From the sequence record OQ870555.1: 64,000 nucleotides of DNA. One strand, given 5' to 3'. Of this stretch, positions 5,185-57,458 are shown piece after piece. Both the position numbers and the translations under genes were made by a program. Source of the DNA: Escherichia phage PECP14. Within the stretch, counting starts at the first letter, position 1. The number at the start of each line of letters is the position of its first letter. The notes beneath the pieces are model-generated. The model made no database searches and had not been told where the DNA came from. It saw only the letters and a program-made list of their open reading frames with translations.

Positions 5185-5395
5185 CGTCTGCGATTTCCAT
5201 TTTGAGTTCTTTGTTATACTGAGCAGCCATACCAGCTAAATCAGCAGCTTCTTTCAACCACGCATCTTTGTACGCTTTCTGGTTTGGAGTGCCGATACTA
5301 TCCTGGTAATTGATTCTTGCTATGGAGAGCAAATTAAGTTTTGCTTGAATCTTTGGAAGTGTTATTGTCATTGCCATAATTGATCCTCTCATCAA
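5177..5395 (-). CDS. hypothetical protein
   Basis: ORF with early-type promoter immediately upstream (5407-5435); overlaps ligase start by 8 nt. Confidence 0.4.
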   Translation of the reverse strand: MMRGSIMAMTITLPKIQAKLNLLSIARINYQDSIGTPNQKAYKDAWLKEAADLAGMAAQYNKELKMEIADDE

Positions 5396-5406
5396 TTTAT
5401 ATAAAT

Positions 5407-5435
5407 ATTATATATGAAAACTGAGTCGAAAGCAA
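5407..5435 (-). promoter_or_regulatory. leftward early promoter cassette
   Basis: minus strand TTGCTT-17-TATAAT + ATAAATTGATGAGAGGA. Confidence 0.5.
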
Positions 5436-10700: not shown

Positions 10701-11196
10701 AACAATACTCCTATGTTGGTTATTCGGATATCTTTCTTTAGGACTATTCAAAAGAATAGAACAACTATTACTACCATTTACACAAACATTAATCATCATC
10801 AAGCAGTATGAATAAGTTATCATACCTCAGTGCTGCGCTCTCTTAACTCTTATCCAGATCAGAACCTAGGTCATTGGCCGCTAAGCCGATTCTGATTGCC
10901 CTCACTATCCTATTGGTAGGTGGCTACTGGACGTGTCACCATTCGCTGCTCTTTTCGTTCGCACCCCCATATAAAGCTCTGCCTATATAACGAGCTAAAT
11001 ATGCACGGTTTGGATTTACCTTTCCGAATTCAGGGTACGCAGATCACTTAATTGATAATTAACTAATGCAGTATAAACACTAGTAATAGTTAAAACAACC
11101 CTTAATGGGGCAGCCTAACTGTTCCGTATTGCGGATTGTAAACAAGAAAAATTAGCAAAATCAATTTTTACTAATGTCTCTCAATTCAATATAAAT

Positions 11197-11225
11197 ATTA
11201 TATCAAGATTTTGAGCATCCTGCAA
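11197..11225 (-). promoter_or_regulatory. leftward early promoter followed by long leader
   Basis: minus strand TTGCAG-17-TATAAT; ~500 nt ORF-free before the helicase ORF. Confidence 0.45.
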
Positions 11226-11316
11226 GTAAAATTTTTCCGAAGGTGCTATCAGTGTCTTTGAGCACAGAGAAAACCGAGTCAAAACGACTCGGTAATCAGG
11301 ATTGAGCTAATGAAAA

Positions 11317-11712
11317 TCAATCATCATTTAGGCCTGGGACATAGATTCCAATGCGATTTAATCGACCTTTAGCTTCTTCGAGAATATCTTCGGTGTACTC
11401 CCAAATATCATCTTCTACTTGCAAAAGATAAGGGGATTCACCAGTTTCGGGGTCACGTGTAATGGCTAAACCACGTGGATGGAATATAGAGAAGTTGAGG
11501 GCAACAATCAAGCCCATGCTGGACAATTCATTCCAGTCAGCTTCCCAACCATCATCTTCATCTTCGTCCACAAAGACACCTACACTAGGGTCTGTTACAG
11601 AAGTAAACGGAAATGTTACACTAACCTTGTCAACCCCCAACCAACGTGCAAGGAGCCCCTCAGCACGCTCTACCAAACTAGGATCTATCTGACGCCAAAA
11701 TACTTGTTCCAT
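11317..11712 (-). CDS. hypothetical protein (paralog 1 of tandem pair)
   Basis: shares DW.EL..MGL..ALN...F.P and C-terminal G(I/Y)x(V/I)PGL with the adjacent ORF. Confidence 0.5.
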   Translation of the reverse strand: MEQVFWRQIDPSLVERAEGLLARWLGVDKVSVTFPFTSVTDPSVGVFVDEDEDDGWEADWNELSSMGLIVALNFSIFHPRGLAITRDPETGESPYLLQVEDDIWEYTEDILEEAKGRLNRIGIYVPGLNDD

Positions 11713-46858: not shown

Positions 46859-46888
46859 TTGCTAAAACCCTCTCCTTTTGATATAATA
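46859..46888 (+). promoter_or_regulatory. early promoter cassette
   Basis: TTGCTA-18-TATAAT + ATAAATTGATGAGAGGG. Confidence 0.5.
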
Positions 46889-46917
46889 TTTATATAAATT
46901 GATGAGAGGGCTTTGAA

Positions 46918-49041: not shown

Positions 49042-49740
49042 ATGAGAATCATTTCAAAGTTCAATGATGTATACGATTTGCAGAATAGTTTATTTGATCC
49101 AGATCGTGTCTGGGAGCGTAAAACTGAAGAGCTGCTAGTAAAAGTAACTGACGATGTAGAAAAGAATATCGTTCATAATCGTCAGGTGTTTCGTGAGGGT
49201 TCCTTATCCTTCCGTGGTGACTTCGAATACTCAGTAAATCCACTGTTTATTGCAGGTGAAGTTTACTGGTTACATGAACTGTCCTGCTGGCATCCAGCAT
49301 TCAGTTTCAAAACGTTCAACATCGATGCTGTGTTCGATAAAATGGAAGAAATGGGATTACATGCCCGTTCTTACTTACTAGATAAGAATCGTGGTGATGT
49401 TCGTGAAACCATGCGAGATATGTTGGTTGAAGCAAAACCTAAAGCAGAACGTATCTTATCTGAACTGCGCGTACCAATTGCATATGTGAAGGGTATTAAG
49501 AAGAACGATAACGACGATGTTCGTAACTTCGTAATTCAGACCAACATTCGTTTCCACCAGTCGGGTATTCCGTGGCAGGAAATTGAAAGTAACTTATACC
49601 GTTTACACCAAGTTCTCGAACAGTATATTTTCGGTGTACTAGGAACTGGTGAGCCTGATATGATTACCGTATCAGATAAAGACAGGTTAGCAGCACATGG
49701 ATTTGATACAAAAACTTCTTTCAGGAATATGGCAAGGTAA
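49042..49740 (+). CDS. hypothetical protein
   Basis: promoter cassette upstream. Confidence 0.5.
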   Translation: MRIISKFNDVYDLQNSLFDPDRVWERKTEELLVKVTDDVEKNIVHNRQVFREGSLSFRGDFEYSVNPLFIAGEVYWLHELSCWHPAFSFKTFNIDAVFDKMEEMGLHARSYLLDKNRGDVRETMRDMLVEAKPKAERILSELRVPIAYVKGIKKNDNDDVRNFVIQTNIRFHQSGIPWQEIESNLYRLHQVLEQYIFGVLGTGEPDMITVSDKDRLAAHGFDTKTSFRNMAR

Positions 49741-50146
49741 GTGGTATATCCTGGGAGCTGGTCTTGCGATAGGTATCGGATTCGGTGCTTATCACTTAGT
49801 AAGTAAGGTTGAAACTCTAGCTGGAGATCTTGCAGTTGCGACTAAAAAGATCTCCACTCTAGAGACTTCCCTTAATAAGGTGAAAACTGAGAGTGAACTT
49901 CGTGAGACTCGAATGAACCAGTATTTCACAATGAATAATATTTCGCAAGCAGATCTAGACAAAAAGATTAAGCAGCTAGATAAAGCTCTTAGTCGTCAAG
50001 ATGTTATCGCTGCAAAGCCTGGATTGGTAACATTAATTGCTAAAAAGCAGAATAAAGAGTTCGAGGAAAGATTAGCATGTTTAACTGGAAACTTGGAGTA
50101 CTGCTCGCAGCCGCAATCACAATCACAGGCTGTGCAGAAGAAATAA
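49697..50146 (+). CDS. membrane-anchored coiled-coil protein
   Basis: N-terminal TM then coiled coil. Confidence 0.45.
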   Translation: MDLIQKLLSGIWQGKWYILGAGLAIGIGFGAYHLVSKVETLAGDLAVATKKISTLETSLNKVKTESELRETRMNQYFTMNNISQADLDKKIKQLDKALSRQDVIAAKPGLVTLIAKKQNKEFEERLACLTGNLEYCSQPQSQSQAVQKK

Positions 50147-50430
50147 AACCAGAGCCATCTCATGAGTTAAAGCAAGCTCATGTTGACTGGCCTAAAGGAC
50201 TTCAGCCGTGTAGCTTTGATTTCAAATTCGAAAAGAAATTAGCTACAAATGGTGAAGATGGCGTAGTAGTTGTTGTACCTTACAAAGATTGGAATGCAAA
50301 AGCAAAATGCGAGGAAGCAGTTTACTCTTACATTTCACGACTGACCGGTATGGTTTGCTTCTATCGTCAAGATTTACAAGAAAAACGTTGCTTAGTTTAC
50401 TATCCACCCATTACAAATAGGAAAGATTAA
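50077..50430 (+). CDS. putative lipoprotein
   Basis: lipobox LAAAITITGC. Confidence 0.45.
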   Translation: MFNWKLGVLLAAAITITGCAEEIKPEPSHELKQAHVDWPKGLQPCSFDFKFEKKLATNGEDGVVVVVPYKDWNAKAKCEEAVYSYISRLTGMVCFYRQDLQEKRCLVYYPPITNRKD

Positions 50431-54278: not shown

Positions 54279-54284
54279 TACCCA

Positions 54285-54316
54285 AAGCCTAGTCTTAGCT
54301 GACTAGGCTTTTTTAT
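54285..54316 (+). terminator. intrinsic terminator
   Basis: AAGCCTAGTC...GACTAGGCTT + TTTTT. Confidence 0.6.
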
Positions 54317-54319
54317 TAC

Positions 54320-54349
54320 TTGCTTTCTGCTAAAAATTTTGATATAATA
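54320..54349 (+). promoter_or_regulatory. early promoter cassette
   Basis: TTGCTT-18-TATAAT. Confidence 0.5.
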
Positions 54350-54379
54350 TATGTATAAATTGATGAGAGGAGTATCACA

Positions 54380-54760
54380 TTGAATTACGCATATCTTATA
54401 ATACATAACAACGTGGTCTGTGGTACTCGTGCTGTAGAAATGGGAATCACAGAAGAAAAATATAAGTCACTGCCTGAAAAGGAGCAAGAATATTATGTTG
54501 AGCAAGCTGCTTGGGAATATGCTGAAGTTTATCCCGAAGAACGTGAAGGCCGTGTTACTATTGTTGTTGCTCTGGGGCTGGTGGGCTGTGATACCGAAGT
54601 TGATACAGATCTAGAAACACTTGAAGAATGGGAAGGATTGGATATTGCAGAACAAAATGCTATCATCCGTCAATCTTTCTGGGAAGTAGTAGACTGTCAC
54701 GTTGTCTTTGAGCCAAATGATACAGAAGCTGAAAAACACACTAATTGGATGACTCGATAA
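54380..54760 (+). CDS. hypothetical acidic protein
   Basis: TTG start after promoter cassette. Confidence 0.4.
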   Translation: MNYAYLIIHNNVVCGTRAVEMGITEEKYKSLPEKEQEYYVEQAAWEYAEVYPEEREGRVTIVVALGLVGCDTEVDTDLETLEEWEGLDIAEQNAIIRQSFWEVVDCHVVFEPNDTEAEKHTNWMTR

Positions 54761-55623
54761 TGAAAAAAGAATTTAACCTGCACGAAATGTTAGTAGTACC
54801 AGACGATGTTAACCTGTTCTTCGTAGGAGATATTCACGGCTGTAATGATATGCTGGAAGATGCTCTTAAACTAGCAGGATATAAAGAAAAGCGTGACTAT
54901 GTTGTCTGTGTTGGCGACTTAATTGACCGTGGCCCGCAGAACTTACAGGTTCTAGCCAAATTCTTATATAACCCACGCTTCCGTAGCGTTCGTGGCAACC
55001 ATGATCAGTTTATGATTGCCGGGGATTATGCCAACTGGATGTATAATGGTGGAATGTGGGCAATGAATGATCTGGATACCGATACAATTAAAGGTATCGC
55101 AGAAGATATGGCAGTTAAAATGCCAGTATTCATGACTGTACTCCATCGTGGCAAGAAATACGGTGTTGTTCATGGTGGAATACCATTCCAGTATAAAGAT
55201 GCGGGATTCGATGTACATACACCTAATTGGGACGATATTATTGATCATATCGCTGCAAGTGAAAATGATCCTAATGATCATCCTAGTTATTACATTGAGC
55301 CATATCTATGGGATCGTGATGTAATTCAGGAAATTGGTTTTCATCTGTCTAAGCAAGGTGCAGAGCACCCCTATTTCCAGCGTTATGCAGGATTTAAAGA
55401 TGAATTGACTGTGGAAGTACCAGAAGTTGAGAGTGTGGATTTCGTATTCCACGGACACACTGGTGTTCCTTACCCAATTCTGTACAAGAACCGTGTTTAT
55501 CTCGATACTGGCGGTGTTTTCAACGGGCAGTTGACGGTTGCGCAAGTTAATGATGAAGCTGGTAAGATTATGACATTTACCACTGACAAAGATGATAGCT
55601 GTGGTGTACAGAGGATTCTATAA
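54760..55623 (+). CDS. Ser/Thr protein phosphatase (PPP-family metallophosphatase)
   Basis: GDIHGC, GDLIDRG, RGNHD motifs. Confidence 0.75.
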   Translation: MKKEFNLHEMLVVPDDVNLFFVGDIHGCNDMLEDALKLAGYKEKRDYVVCVGDLIDRGPQNLQVLAKFLYNPRFRSVRGNHDQFMIAGDYANWMYNGGMWAMNDLDTDTIKGIAEDMAVKMPVFMTVLHRGKKYGVVHGGIPFQYKDAGFDVHTPNWDDIIDHIAASENDPNDHPSYYIEPYLWDRDVIQEIGFHLSKQGAEHPYFQRYAGFKDELTVEVPEVESVDFVFHGHTGVPYPILYKNRVYLDTGGVFNGQLTVAQVNDEAGKIMTFTTDKDDSCGVQRIL

Positions 55624-55991
55624 TGGAACGTGAAGAACGTTATGTAGTTATAAAGCTGTCTGATATTGAGAAAGCCCTAGAATTAGGGCATATCACTCAA
55701 AGTAACTTTACCACTTTGGAACATATCTTGTCCAAACTATGGTATAGTCGAGCACAACGTGGTAAAGAAGATCTCAAAACCGTCGTGGTAGAGCATGATT
55801 GGCCAGAGTACGAAGAAGTCTGGAAAATGCTAGAGAATCGTGTTGGTTTTGAGCAAGCACGACAGGAAGAACTTGACAAAGGATATCAAGAAGCGAAAGA
55901 GCACCATGAGGTTTATGATGAAATATTCAAACTTCGTGGTATTAGTAGTTATTGTCAGGGTTGGAATAAATATGCGGAGGAAGTTCTGTAA
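55623..55991 (+). CDS. hypothetical protein
   Basis: ORF. Confidence 0.45.
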   Translation: MEREERYVVIKLSDIEKALELGHITQSNFTTLEHILSKLWYSRAQRGKEDLKTVVVEHDWPEYEEVWKMLENRVGFEQARQEELDKGYQEAKEHHEVYDEIFKLRGISSYCQGWNKYAEEVL

Positions 55992-56197
55992 TGAAGAGAT
56001 TACTACTATTATCAGTACTAATACTAGCTGGATGTGATTCCTACGATGATAATATGAGATTTACTGCAGAAGATACAAAACACTTATGTGATGTAGCTGG
56101 AGGTGAGCTAGATTATTCCAGTATTCAAATTGGACTCACAAAAGGTATATTCTACGATAGTTATACTATTACATCCACATGTGTAAGGGATAAATAA
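55991..56197 (+). CDS. putative lipoprotein
   Basis: lipobox LILAGC. Confidence 0.4.
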   Translation: MKRLLLLSVLILAGCDSYDDNMRFTAEDTKHLCDVAGGELDYSSIQIGLTKGIFYDSYTITSTCVRDK

Positions 56198-56787
56198 TGA
56201 AAGTTAAATTCTGGAGTGAACTCCACTTAGACCACCCAGGGATTCTTCGTTTTCGCCCCTGGTTTAAGAACATGAAAGAGCACGATGAGTATATCCTAGA
56301 TACTTTGTCCAAGCACATTGGCAAGCGTACAAAACTTGTGCTGCTAGGAGATAGTGCCGTGGGGCGAGAAGGGTTGGCCAAGTTGAAGTCGGTTATCCAC
56401 AACGTGCCTAACCAGCTAATTATGGGAAACCACGATGCAGAGCGTCAGGGTCTACGTATTAAAGATCTTGTAGACGTTTATGACGATATTCAGGCTCTAG
56501 GTAAGCAAACAGGTGGTGGCAAGAAGTTCTGGCTGTCGCACTGTCCTTTACACCCAGAGGAACTTCGTGGTAAGCTGAACATTCACGGACATGTGCACAC
56601 CAATTCTGTGCGTGACCCACGTTATATCAACGTCTCTTTTGAGATGAGCAAGACTCCTATTCCTTTAGAGGATATTGTGTCTGGCAAGTTCACAAGCTAT
56701 GATAAAGTGGTTAACTGCACTACTGGTGAAGTACTCCAAATCGATGAAGATGTGGTAGCGGTATTGAGGGAAGATATCAATGTTTGA
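56197..56787 (+). CDS. calcineurin-like metallophosphoesterase
   Basis: LLGDSAVG, GNHD, GHVHT motifs. Confidence 0.55.
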   Translation: MKVKFWSELHLDHPGILRFRPWFKNMKEHDEYILDTLSKHIGKRTKLVLLGDSAVGREGLAKLKSVIHNVPNQLIMGNHDAERQGLRIKDLVDVYDDIQALGKQTGGGKKFWLSHCPLHPEELRGKLNIHGHVHTNSVRDPRYINVSFEMSKTPIPLEDIVSGKFTSYDKVVNCTTGEVLQIDEDVVAVLREDINV

Positions 56788-56849
56788 TTTTGATGGCATG
56801 GCTCGTGAGATATTTATAGCAATAGGGATAGTAGTTCTTATCTCTTTCT

Positions 56850-56880
56850 TTATAGGCCTAGGCTTAGGCCTTTTATTTTA
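56850..56880 (+). terminator. palindromic hairpin + T-run
   Basis: GGCCTAGGCTTAGGCC + TTTTATTTTA. Confidence 0.45.
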
Positions 56881-56888
56881 AAACTTCA

Positions 56889-56918
56889 TTTGCTAAAACG
56901 CTTAGTTTTCTGTATAAT
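56889..56918 (+). promoter_or_regulatory. early promoter cassette
   Basis: TTGCTA-18-TATAAT. Confidence 0.5.
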
Positions 56919-56948
56919 TACTTTATAAATTGATGAGAAGGAATCAAA

Positions 56949-57380
56949 ATGCAAAAGATTGATAAAGCACTCTTAATCGCAACAGCAGATAAGTTTGAGC
57001 AAGTTAAAGCTACTTTTAAGGCAGTCTTTCAGTCCTATGTTCAAGACAAATCGAACCCGATTTCTGAGCGTTTGATGATGTGGGAATGTTTTGCTTGCAA
57101 TGCTCTGCTAATTTCCGATTATAAGGGAGAAGTATCTGAGGAATTGCATGAGATCTTTATTAATGAGGATACTCCACGCTATCAGTTAGTGAACTTCCAA
57201 GATCTAGCTGAGCAAGTTATTCCTGATGATCTTTGGGACAAGTATTACGGTGATCCTGAAGAAGATGGTATGGAACCTGAGAAGTGCATTGAACTGATCT
57301 GTAAGGATCATCCTGAAATTGCTGAGAAATTTGAGTTAGTATTTGCTTCTGAGTTCTCAGGTTTCGTTAACGATTGGTAA
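56949..57380 (+). CDS. hypothetical protein
   Basis: promoter cassette upstream. Confidence 0.5.
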   Translation: MQKIDKALLIATADKFEQVKATFKAVFQSYVQDKSNPISERLMMWECFACNALLISDYKGEVSEELHEIFINEDTPRYQLVNFQDLAEQVIPDDLWDKYYGDPEEDGMEPEKCIELICKDHPEIAEKFELVFASEFSGFVNDW

Positions 57381-57397: not shown

Positions 57398-57426
57398 TTG
57401 CTTTTAGCTTTAAAATTCTGTATAAT
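57398..57426 (+). promoter_or_regulatory. early promoter cassette
   Basis: TTGCTT-17-TATAAT. Confidence 0.5.
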
Positions 57427-57458
57427 AAGTTCATAAATTAATGAGAGAGGAAATTCTA

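What the first reader, a model, noticed from the sequence alone, without database searches (positions are those of the whole stretch)
54760..56787. Two metallophosphatases in close proximity
A PPP-family Ser/Thr phosphatase (GDIHGC / GDLIDRG / RGNHD) and a second calcineurin-like phosphoesterase (GNHD / GHVHT) are separated by two small ORFs, one a predicted lipoprotein. This suggests the phage dephosphorylates host proteins or nucleotides during early infection.
Basis: partly seen in the sequence, partly recalled or inferred. Interest (0 to 1): 0.35.

Follow-up and report, generated by a model that had tools for sequence, protein, structure and literature searches.

The report
Two phosphatase genes, T5-like early operon
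This is the well-known, already annotated pair of phosphatase-type genes of T5-like phages (a lambda-phosphatase-like enzyme and a small phosphoesterase of unknown substrate), sitting in one early operon; it is real but ordinary, and what the enzymes act on is still untested.

Summary
The window is a T5-like Salmonella phage (Epseptimavirus, 99.3% identical to GEC_vB_N3). Positions 54760-55623 encode the orthologue of T5.035, a lambda-phosphatase (NinI)-type PPP enzyme with every catalytic residue conserved. Positions 56197-56787 encode the orthologue of T5.034, a small aq_1665/COG4186-type metallophosphoesterase.

They lie in one early operon of six translationally coupled genes, separated by a 122-aa ORF and a 68-aa lipoprotein. 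T5 itself lacks both small ORFs, and there the two enzyme genes abut.

The two enzymes are not duplicates; they are related only at superfamily level. The second carries a rare Glu-for-Asp change at the first metal ligand, but the gene is still under purifying selection.

Relatives of the second enzyme in other phages sit mostly among DNA replication and repair genes, and some carry inteins in their active-site motifs. This points to a nucleic-acid or nucleotide substrate rather than a protein.

The pairing is typical of T5-like phages but not obligatory: two natural T5-like contigs lack the second gene, and a published T5 knock-down screen scored both genes "Not Fit".

Both genes have been annotated since 2004-05. 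Their substrates remain unknown.

The parts
54284..54311 (+). Rho-independent terminator closing the upstream (thioredoxin) unit; upstream boundary of the operon
   Evidence: 11-bp stem, 5 G-C pairs, T-run; same position as a terminator annotated in T5 records
54320..54372 (+). T5-type early promoter (-35 TTGCTT 54320-54325, 17-nt spacer, -10 TATAAT 54343-54348) with the conserved leader ATAAATTGATGAGAGGAG, which includes the ribosome-binding site
   Evidence: Sequence read. The promoter-leader motif occurs 15 times in the window against 0.05 expected. T5 records annotate an early promoter at the syntenic place. The resemblance to T5 P_N25-type promoters is from my own knowledge
54380..54760 (+). 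First gene of the operon, 126 aa, DUF7167 protein of unknown function (TTG start)
   Evidence: Pfam PF23768 E=2.5e-7; PHROG 6798 E=3.4e-75; same CDS annotated in phage Stitch; dN/dS 0.10 against Stitch
54760..55623 (+). Lambda-phosphatase (NinI)-type PPP metallophosphatase, 287 aa; orthologue of T5.035 (79% identical)
   Evidence: Residues D24, H26, D53, R57, N80, H81, H138, R186 and H233 correspond to lambda D20, H22, D49, R53, N75, H76, H139, R162 and H186. AlphaFold model pLDDT 93.7; best structural match 1g5b, E=2.5e-20, TM 0.82. dN/dS 0.02
55623..55991 (+). 122-aa ORF of unknown function (PHROG 7810), conserved core VVVEHDWPEYEEVW; absent from T5, variably present in T5-like phages
   Evidence: dN/dS 0.11; no Pfam, PDB or PADLOC match
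55991..56197 (+). 68-aa predicted lipoprotein (signal peptide, lipobox LAGC at nt 56024-56035, Asp at +2, two further Cys); labelled 'Rz-like spanin' in RefSeq, probably wrongly
   Evidence: The true spanin pair lies at 49697-50430. Homologues sit in the same slot in L020 and in the My1-like L114
56197..56787 (+). Small aq_1665/COG4186-type metallophosphoesterase, 196 aa; orthologue of T5.034 (55% identical); motif I carries Glu8 instead of Asp
   Evidence: dN/dS 0.13 between two Glu8 carriers
56780..56881 (+). 33-aa hydrophobic ORF overlapping the end of the phosphoesterase gene by 8 nt; last gene of the unit
   Evidence: annotated as a CDS in Stitch; coding status weak (dN/dS 0.9 on 2 differences)
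56854..56871 (+). Rho-independent terminator closing the operon; the next early promoter follows at 56890-56918
   Evidence: a terminator is annotated at the same place in Stitch

Best explanation
This is the conserved early 'phosphatase operon' of T5-like phages. One sigma-70 early promoter drives six translationally coupled genes; four junctions are TAATG overlaps. Two of the genes encode unrelated binuclear metallophosphoesterases that most likely do different jobs. The first (orthologue of T5.035) is a lambda-phosphatase-type, presumably Mn2+-dependent phosphomonoesterase. It has a complete active site plus a helical insertion specific to the T5-like clade, and it most likely removes phosphate from proteins (host or phage) soon after the second-step DNA transfer. 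The second (orthologue of T5.034) is a small cap-less aq_1665/COG4186-type phosphoesterase. Judged by the company its relatives keep in other phages, it most likely acts on a nucleic-acid end or a nucleotide during replication or recombination. Both appear to be accessory rather than core genes. The two small ORFs between them are cargo in an insertion/deletion hot spot, not part of a phosphatase machine. Shown here: identity, orthology, active-site conservation, operon structure, purifying selection, distribution. Inferred: substrates and timing.
For: Identity and orthology: 99.3% DNA identity to Salmonella phage GEC_vB_N3 and 97.5% to Stitch, with the same genes annotated. The proteins are 79% and 55% identical to T5.035 and T5.034 in the same gene order. 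First enzyme: lambda phosphatase E=2.8e-32, all nine catalytic residues conserved. Its model matches 1g5b far better than an ApaH-like protein (E 2.5e-20 and TM 0.82 against 1.4e-11 and 0.65). dN/dS is 0.02. Second enzyme: PHROG 547 E=2.1e-55; model best matches 1xm7; ligands of motifs II-V invariant; dN/dS 0.13. The family has 21,612 cluster representatives at E<=0.001 and occurs in 820 phage records. Not duplicates: hhalign 89% probability over motifs I-III only, BLASTP E=0.01. Operon: terminator, promoter, TAATG junctions, terminator. DNA-side inference for the second enzyme: 14 of 20 large immediate neighbours of non-T5 relatives are replication, recombination or nucleotide-metabolism genes. 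These include DNA polymerases, helicases, primase-helicase, ligase, a UvsX-like recombinase and exonucleases, and one relative lies between SbcD-like and SbcC-like genes. Relatives also carry inteins inside motif III or motif V. Accessory status: two natural T5-like contigs (L093, L107) keep the first enzyme but lack the second. T5.034 and T5.035 both scored 'Not Fit' in the CRISPRi-ART knock-down screen of T5 (PMC11879866, supplement 16).
Against: No biochemical or genetic test of either protein was found; substrates are inferred from homology and neighbourhood only. In T5-like phages the second enzyme does not sit in the replication module. Glu8 at the first metal ligand may change metal affinity or activity in this particular phage. 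Klimuk et al. 2020 (PMC7472727) state that the classical T5 gene C2 (conditional-lethal, late-transcription defect) maps to the 32-kDa Ser/Thr phosphatase ORF. If so, the first enzyme would be essential rather than accessory. The CRISPRi-ART screen misses many known essential T5 genes (for example the primase, D10, D13), so 'Not Fit' is weak evidence. Adjacent PPP-phosphoesterase pairs recur in three non-T5 contigs (L044, L046, L113), which hints at a link between the two enzymes.
Confidence: 0.55

Rival explanations
1. The first enzyme is the product of the classical T5 gene C2. It would be an essential regulator that, by dephosphorylating a host or phage factor, allows modification of RNA polymerase and the switch from early to late transcription.
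For: Klimuk et al. 2020 (PMC7472727) state that the C2 mutation maps to an ORF for a 32-kDa putative Ser/Thr phosphatase. The protein here is 32.7 kDa and is the only such ORF in the region. C1 is attached to the nearby T5.041. Purifying selection is very strong (dN/dS 0.02).
Against: No primary mapping data are cited. None of the four T5 GenBank/RefSeq records labels the gene C2. T5.035 had one of the weakest knock-down effects in CRISPRi-ART (-4.78, p=0.98, 'Not Fit'), although that screen is insensitive. The classical papers were not available to read.
Confidence: 0.2
2. The two enzymes are a functional pair that act in sequence on one substrate. One possibility is healing of RNA or DNA ends: a phosphodiesterase step on a 2',3'-cyclic or blocked end, followed by a monoesterase step, as the lambda-phosphatase-like domain of bacterial Pnkp does. 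Another is degradation of a nucleotide-derived compound.
For: The two are co-transcribed and translationally coupled, and they directly abut in T5. All 26 T5-like loci retrieved through the phosphoesterase have the PPP gene just upstream, and 19 of 21 retrieved through the PPP gene have the phosphoesterase. Adjacent pairs with one small ORF between them, in either order, occur in otherwise unrelated contigs L044, L046 and L113. The Pnkp phosphatase domain 4j6o is a structural match (E=1.1e-9), and there are weak hits to bacterial Pnkp and to PHROG 8238 'RNA ligase'.
Against: Outside T5-like phages the pairing is rare: PPP within 10 kb in 3 of 54 phosphoesterase loci, and the phosphoesterase in 1 of 59 PPP loci. 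L093 and L107 keep the PPP gene without the phosphoesterase. The gap between the genes is variable (0 to about 575 nt). No kinase or ligase partner lies in the operon. No proper null model for adjacency was computed.
Confidence: 0.15
3. The first enzyme is an ApaH-like nucleotide hydrolase (Ap4A hydrolase or Np4A-RNA decapping enzyme), not a protein phosphatase.
For: Sub-threshold hits to ApaH models (NF001204 63.3 bits, TIGR00668 39.3 bits) and to ApaH structures (E 4.5e-10 to 3e-6). Its length (287 aa) is close to that of ApaH.
Against: The scores are far below the ApaH cut-offs (176 and 222.85 bits). Lambda phosphatase is about 20 orders of magnitude better in sequence and clearly better in fold. 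E. coli and Shigella ApaH structures are not among the top 50 structural matches. The extra residues are insertions in a lambda-phosphatase core.
Confidence: 0.08
4. The second enzyme is a counter-defence phosphodiesterase that destroys cyclic-nucleotide immune signals (CBASS, Pycsar, type III CRISPR, Thoeris).
For: It is an early gene. The fold is shared with class III cyclic-nucleotide phosphodiesterases (Rv0805, GpdQ; Foldseek E about 4e-4). It is accessory and patchily distributed.
Against: The similarity is only generic superfamily similarity, ranked below YfcE, Mre11, LpxH and Vps29. The neighbourhood of relatives is replication and repair, not anti-defence islands. There is no PADLOC signal, though that library holds defence genes rather than anti-defence genes.
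Confidence: 0.08
5. The Glu8 variant of the second enzyme in this phage is catalytically dead or decaying.
For: The first metal-ligand Asp is Asp in 191 of 203 representatives, and Glu occurs only in this sub-lineage. One related contig (L021) has the gene split in two. Some T5-like phages have lost the gene.
Against: dN/dS is 0.13 between two Glu8 carriers (window against Stitch, 16 synonymous and 8 non-synonymous differences). All other ligands are intact. Glu retains the metal-binding carboxylate.
Confidence: 0.1

Closest known systems
Bacteriophage T5 T5.035 / T5.034 (early region, 'putative serine/threonine protein phosphatase' and 'phosphoesterase')
   Same: Orthologues (79% and 55% identity), same order and strand, same flanking genes (holin, endolysin, thioredoxin upstream; T5.033-like gene downstream), same early promoter and terminator layout.
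   Different: In T5 the two genes abut with a 1-nt overlap. Here a 122-aa ORF and a 68-aa lipoprotein lie between them. The second enzyme is 23 aa longer at the C-terminus and has Glu8 instead of Asp8. The upstream small gene is 126 aa here and 81 aa in T5.
Bacteriophage lambda Ser/Thr protein phosphatase (NinI, PDB 1g5b)
   Same: E=2.8e-32; all metal ligands, both phosphate-binding Arg and the general-acid His are conserved; fold TM 0.82 on the lambda chain.
   Different: 66 residues longer: insertions of about 25 and 18 aa between the fourth and fifth motifs (helices 157-207 in the model) and a C-terminal beta-hairpin extension of about 19 aa. Only about 37% identical. Different genomic setting (virulent-phage early operon rather than the lambdoid nin region).
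E. coli PrpA / PrpB protein phosphatases (NCBIfam NF008516, NF007425)
   Same: Best NCBIfam matches (95.6 and 75.7 bits); same bacterial lambda-phosphatase-like clade.
   Different: Far below the equivalog cut-offs (326 and 332 bits), and the match covers only the N-terminal half. Not an orthologue.
Aquifex aeolicus aq_1665 (PDB 1xm7), COG4186 'predicted phosphoesterase'
   Same: Best sequence match (E=0.0018) and best structural match (E=4.3e-11, TM 0.67/0.71, 27% identity) of the second enzyme. Same size, single cap-less domain, extra His three residues after motif I. T5.034 is annotated COG4186.
   Different: aq_1665 is cellular and itself of unknown function, so it offers a fold, not a mechanism. 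The phage family has its own signature, FWLSHxPxHPxELRGKxNIHGHVH...RYINV.
Mycobacteriophage cluster A metallophosphoesterases (Bxb1 gp47; A10ZJ24 Gp48, EMBO Rep 2025, PMC12287305)
   Same: An early phage metallophosphoesterase with phosphodiesterase activity that damages host DNA. It is an example of what a small phage enzyme of this superfamily can do.
   Different: Not specifically related: hhalign probability 1.6% and BLASTP E=7.3 against Bxb1 gp47. Its function cannot be transferred.
T5 A1 (pre-early predicted metallophosphatase needed for host DNA degradation)
   Same: Same phage group and same superfamily; shows that T5-like phages use this fold on DNA (bioRxiv 10.64898/2026.04.02.716235).
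   Different: A different gene, in the first-step-transfer region, a far larger protein (a 60-kDa protein was historically assigned to A1), essential. It was not compared by sequence here.

Membership tests
PPP family, lambda phosphatase (NinI)-like clade | Motifs GDxHG, GDxxDRG and GNH[ED] in order | tested here: met
   GDIHGC aa 23-28, GDLIDRG aa 52-58, RGNHD aa 78-82; invariant or nearly invariant in 34 homologues
PPP family, lambda phosphatase (NinI)-like clade | Remaining metal ligands (lambda H139, H186) and phosphate-binding Arg (lambda R53, R162) | tested here: met
   H138, H233, R57 and R186 align with the lambda residues
PPP family, lambda phosphatase (NinI)-like clade | Significant sequence and fold similarity to the solved lambda enzyme | tested here: met
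   phmmer E=2.8e-32; Foldseek E=2.5e-20, TM 0.82 on the target; PHROG 246 E=4.4e-92
PPP family, lambda phosphatase (NinI)-like clade | Mn2+-dependent hydrolysis of phospho-Ser/Thr/Tyr substrates | not testable with these tools
   Needs an enzyme assay
E. coli PrpA/PrpB (NCBIfam equivalogs) | Score at or above the curated equivalog cut-off | tested here: not met
   95.6 against 326 bits; 75.7 against 332 bits
ApaH (symmetrical Ap4A hydrolase) | Score at or above the curated cut-off; ApaH-type fold as best match | tested here: not met
   63.3 against 176 bits and 39.3 against 222.85 bits; the best ApaH-like structure, 2qjc, is only TM 0.52/0.65, behind lambda phosphatase
aq_1665 / COG4186 small metallophosphoesterases (PHROG 547) | Motifs II-V of the superfamily (GD, GNH[DE], H, GHxH) | tested here: met
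   G51-D52, N78-H79, H115/H119, H130-G131-H132 and H134 are invariant in 40 sequences
aq_1665 / COG4186 small metallophosphoesterases (PHROG 547) | Motif I DxH (first metal-ligand Asp) | tested here: not met
   SELHLDH: Glu8 replaces Asp while His10 is kept. Asp is found in 191 of 203 representatives; Glu occurs only in the Stitch-like sub-lineage
aq_1665 / COG4186 small metallophosphoesterases (PHROG 547) | Family-level sequence and fold match | tested here: met
   PHROG 547 E=2.1e-55; Foldseek best match 1xm7, E=4.3e-11; T5.034 annotated COG4186
Pfam Metallophos / Metallophos_2 | Score at or above the gathering threshold | tested here: not met
   For this sequence PF12850 scores 18.1 against 27 bits. 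However, 28 of 39 relatives match PF00149 and 22 of 39 match PF12850
aq_1665 / COG4186 small metallophosphoesterases (PHROG 547) | Catalytic activity and substrate | not testable with these tools
   No characterised member was found in the literature search
Two-component spanin (RefSeq label 'Rz-like spanin' on the 68-aa ORF) | Outer-membrane lipoprotein signal | tested here: inconclusive
   Lipobox LAGC is present, but Asp at +2 is the classical inner-membrane retention signal in enterobacteria (my own knowledge). The homologue in L020 has Asn at +2
Two-component spanin (RefSeq label 'Rz-like spanin' on the 68-aa ORF) | Partner i-spanin gene embedded, overlapping or adjacent; location in the lysis cassette | tested here: not met
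   Its neighbours are the 122-aa ORF and the phosphoesterase. A canonical overlapping i-/o-spanin pair (T5.045/T5.044-like) lies at 49697-50146 and 50077-50430
T5 gene C2 product | Orthology to T5.035 | tested here: met
   79% identity, syntenic
T5 gene C2 product | T5.035 is the gene hit by the C2 amber mutations | not testable with these tools
   Only a statement in PMC7472727. No GenBank record carries the label. The classical papers were not held

The most novel reading that the evidence does not exclude
The lambda-phosphatase-like enzyme and the aq_1665-like phosphoesterase are a genuine two-enzyme module. It would have been assembled independently in T5-like phages and in at least three unrelated phage lineages (L044, L046, L113), with the two enzymes acting in sequence on one phosphorylated substrate. 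Alternatively, the first enzyme is the long-sought C2 function that flips T5 transcription from early to late through dephosphorylation.
Probability: 0.15. Interest if true: 0.55.

Novelty: already known. Interest (0 to 1): 0.2.

Why it matters
Very little as a discovery. The gene pair has been annotated in T5 since 2004-05 and in hundreds of T5-like genomes. Its remaining value is that neither enzyme has a known substrate. T5-like phages are used as biocontrol and therapy agents, and how T5 switches from early to late transcription is still unsolved. One paper asserts that the classical regulatory gene C2 is this phosphatase. The second enzyme belongs to a very large uncharacterised family (more than 21,000 cluster representatives). 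Its placement beside phage replication genes, and its inteins, make it a reasonable target for biochemical work.

Tried and rejected
1. A phosphohistidine-phosphatase reading of the 122-aa ORF. A single-sequence PDB search hit human PHPT1 around its catalytic His (E about 0.8-1.2). The matched 'EHHEVYD' stretch is not conserved in the family, and the hit disappears with a family profile. Rejected as chance.

2. Transfer of function from the characterised mycobacteriophage metallophosphoesterases (A10ZJ24 Gp48 / Bxb1 gp47). There is no specific relationship.

3. ApaH membership of the first enzyme. Cut-offs are not met and the fold match is worse than to lambda phosphatase.

4. The two enzymes as a recent duplication. 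They are related only at superfamily level.

5. A defence-system reading of the operon. No PADLOC hits except a meaningless Cas11a match at E=0.004 for the 126-aa protein.

6. The spanin reading of the lipoprotein. A true spanin pair lies elsewhere in the window.

7. A literature search for COG4186 / aq_1665 function found nothing functional.

8. Attempts to read the T5 genome paper and the classical C2 papers failed because they are not held. No T5 record labels C2.

It was repeated without that sequence.

10. Minus-strand ORFs in the region are short (105 aa or less), lack database support and run against the positive GC skew. They were not pursued.
Full report
**What the window is.**
Positions 54300-57000 are 99.3% identical to Salmonella phages GEC_vB_N3 and N7 and 97.5% identical to phage Stitch (Demerecviridae, Epseptimavirus). 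440 phage records match this stretch. In Stitch the same stretch is annotated thioredoxin, hypothetical, 'NinI-like serine-threonine phosphatase', hypothetical, 'Rz-like spanin', 'phosphoesterase', hypothetical. So the finding lies in the early 'C' region of a T5-like phage.

**Checking the observation.**
The ORF map and alignment with T5 and Stitch put the first enzyme at 54760-55623 (ATG start, 287 aa, 32.7 kDa). The second is at 56197-56787 (196 aa).
- First enzyme: Pfam Metallophos E=6.9e-17, PHROG 246 E=4.4e-92 and the solved lambda phosphatase at E=2.8e-32.
- Second enzyme: PHROG 547 E=2.1e-55. It is only weakly seen by Pfam (PF12850, 18.1 bits, below the 27-bit threshold) and by PDB sequence search (aq_1665, 1xm7, E=0.0018).
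- Between them: a 122-aa ORF and a 68-aa ORF with a classical lipoprotein signal (MKRLLLLSVLILAG|C).

In an alignment of 34 homologues down to 29% identity, D24, H26, D53, N80, H138 and H233 are invariant, and R57, H81 and R186 nearly so. Aligned with lambda NinI, these are lambda D20, H22, D49, N75, H139, H186, R53, H76 and R162.

For the second enzyme, 40 sequences down to 33% identity keep H10, G51-D52, N78-H79, H115, P117, H119, H130-G131-H132 and H134 invariant. The one exception is the first ligand. The window, Stitch and a few close relatives have Glu8, whereas 191 of 203 family representatives, T5 and most Epseptimavirus contigs have Asp. Between two Glu8 carriers the gene still shows dN/dS 0.13. 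The variant is therefore maintained, not decaying.

**Structures.**
- The AlphaFold model of the second enzyme (pLDDT 94.6) is closest to aq_1665, a protein of unknown function (Foldseek E=4.3e-11, TM 0.67/0.71). YfcE, Mre11, LpxH and Vps29 follow.
- The model of the first enzyme (pLDDT 93.7) is closest to lambda phosphatase (E=2.5e-20, TM 0.82 on the target). It is well ahead of an ApaH-like protein (2qjc, 1.4e-11), PPZ1, the Pnkp phosphatase domain, PP5 and PP2A.
- Relative to lambda, the T5-like clade has two insertions (about 25 and 18 aa, helical in the model) and a C-terminal hairpin. These do not turn it into an ApaH. The ApaH and PrpA/PrpB equivalog cut-offs are missed by a wide margin.

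**Operon anatomy.**
A terminator at 54284-54311 ends the thioredoxin unit. The promoter is TTGCTT-17-TATAAT at 54320-54348, followed by the leader ATAAATTGATGAGAGGAG. Six ORFs follow (126 aa DUF7167, first enzyme, 122 aa, lipoprotein, second enzyme, 33 aa). Four of the junctions are TAATG overlaps and one is an 8-nt overlap. A terminator at 56854-56871 closes the unit, and the next promoter is at 56890-56918.

The promoter-plus-leader motif occurs 15 times in the window against 0.05 expected. T5 records annotate an early promoter at the syntenic site. Expression in the early class is therefore well supported by homology. It was not measured here.

**Comparison with T5 and relatives.**
In T5 the two genes (T5.035, T5.034) abut with a 1-nt overlap and no ORFs between them. 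Across IMG/VR T5-like contigs the gap is 0, about 290, about 350, about 500 or about 575 nt. It holds the 122-aa ORF, a lipoprotein, both, or remnants. The My1-like contig L114 has PPP, lipoprotein, phosphoesterase. The junction is an insertion/deletion hot spot.

All 26 T5-like loci found through the second enzyme have the first enzyme just upstream. Of 21 T5-like loci found through the first enzyme, 19 have the second. L093 and L107 lack it while keeping the flanking genes.

Outside T5-like phages the pairing is rare: 3 of 54 loci in one direction and 1 of 59 in the other. It is not absent, though. L044, L046 and L113 have the two genes adjacent with one small ORF between them, in either order, in contigs that share almost nothing else with the window.

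The two enzymes are not duplicates (hhalign 89% over motifs I-III only; BLASTP E=0.01).

**What the second enzyme's family does elsewhere.**
The family is very large: 21,612 cluster representatives at E<=0.001 and 820 phage records, including T4-like, jumbo, Kuravirus and actinophage genomes.

I looked at the large immediate neighbours of non-T5 relatives. In 14 of 20 cases these are replication, recombination or nucleotide-metabolism genes. They include DNA polymerases, a polymerase exonuclease subunit, DnaB-like and other helicases, primase-helicase, ATP-dependent ligase, a UvsX-like recombinase and exonucleases. One relative sits between SbcD-like and SbcC-like genes. Earlier look-ups showed the same pattern (primase-helicase and Pol A; Pol B and a 5'-3' exonuclease).

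Five relatives of 466-514 aa carry inteins that interrupt motif III (GNH|C...) or motif V (HGH|C...). Removing them in silico restores the family consensus. From general knowledge, phage inteins favour replication and nucleotide-metabolism enzymes.

This is association, not proof, but it makes a nucleic-acid or nucleotide substrate the best guess. The characterised mycobacteriophage metallophosphoesterases (PMC12287305) are not specifically related.

**What is known experimentally.**
I found no assay of either protein.
- Klimuk et al. 2020 state that the classical gene C2 maps to the 32-kDa Ser/Thr phosphatase ORF and conclude that its effect on RNA polymerase must be indirect. C2 mutants lack a 90-kDa protein associated with RNA polymerase. 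No record labels the gene C2, and I could not read the primary papers.
- In the CRISPRi-ART screen of T5, T5.034 (-3.90, p=0.76) and T5.035 (-4.78, p=0.98) are both 'Not Fit'. Many truly essential T5 genes are also 'Not Fit', so this is weak evidence.

**The small ORFs.**
The 122-aa ORF has a conserved N-terminal core (VVVEHDWPEYEEVW) that is shared with T4-like and Pseudomonas phages. It has no recognisable fold relatives, and a tempting PHPT1 hit proved spurious.

The lipoprotein is labelled 'Rz-like spanin' through PHROG 6073. However, the window has a canonical overlapping spanin pair at 49697-50430 next to dnk, as in T5. The lipoprotein has no i-spanin partner and carries Asp at +2. The label is probably an annotation artefact, and a membrane or periplasmic accessory role such as exclusion is more likely.

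**Verdict.**
The feature is already known and annotated. Interest is low. The open points are the C2 identity, the possible functional link between the two enzymes, and the substrate of a very large uncharacterised phosphoesterase family.

Noticed in passing
window 55991-56197: The 68-aa lipoprotein is annotated 'Rz-like spanin' in RefSeq T5-like genomes (through PHROG 6073). It has no i-spanin partner, lies outside the lysis cassette and has Asp at +2. This is probably a propagated misannotation.
   Followed up: partly
window 49697-50146 and 50077-50430: A canonical overlapping two-component spanin pair lies just upstream of the dNMP kinase gene, as T5.045/T5.044 do in T5. It consists of a 149-aa protein with an N-terminal transmembrane segment and an overlapping 117-aa lipoprotein with lipobox ITGC.
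   Followed up: partly
window, 15 sites (e.g. 5387-5412 minus strand, 46882-46907, 54343-54368, 56913-56938, 57421-57446): The motif TATAAT-N6-ATAAATTGATGAGA (-10 box plus conserved leader and ribosome-binding site) occurs 15 times against 0.05 expected. It marks the T5-type early transcription units. Strand usage switches between roughly 8 kb and 26 kb.
   Followed up: partly
window 56215-56235 (codon 8 of the second enzyme): Asp-to-Glu substitution at the first metal ligand, together with GDI-to-GDS in motif II. It is restricted to the Stitch/GEC_vB_N3-like sub-lineage; other Epseptimavirus and T5 sequences have Asp.
   Followed up: yes
proteins P0185, P0254 (motif III) and P0206, P0240, P0298 (motif V): Relatives of the second enzyme carry insertions of about 290-320 aa that begin with Cys, end in TGN followed by Cys, and split the GNH or HGH active-site motifs. 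These are inteins with probable homing-endonuclease domains, although Pfam reported nothing at E<=0.001.
   Followed up: partly
L093 (about 10861-11450) and L107: Two natural T5-like contigs keep the first phosphatase and the flanking genes but lack the second phosphoesterase. L093 also lacks the lipoprotein.
   Followed up: partly
L021 9998-10589: In one close relative the second phosphoesterase gene is split into two reading frames. This is either a frameshift or a sequencing error.
   Followed up: no
L044 9992-11344; L046 9079-10546; L113 502-2299: Non-T5 phage contigs in which an aq_1665-type phosphoesterase and a lambda-phosphatase-type enzyme are neighbours, separated by one small unrelated ORF (62-66 aa in L044 and L046). 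The gene order differs between contigs.
   Followed up: partly
window 55623-55991: The N-terminal 78 aa or so of the 122-aa ORF (core VVVEHDWPEYEEVW) recur in T4-like Citrobacter, Cronobacter and Klebsiella phages and in Pseudomonas phages, sometimes fused to a different C-terminal domain of about 100 aa. Function unknown.
   Followed up: partly
L002 4304-4549 (T5.036, RefSeq NC_005859): The 81-aa gene upstream of T5.035 is labelled 'major head protein' in RefSeq, which cannot be right for an 81-aa early protein. Its counterpart here is the 126-aa DUF7167 protein.
   Followed up: no
PMC11879866 supplement 16 (T5 gene C1 = T5.041): The gene annotated as holin (C1) is among the strongest 'Fit' genes in the T5 knock-down screen (2.45, p=4e-8), while the endolysin and both spanins are 'Not Fit'.
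   Followed up: no
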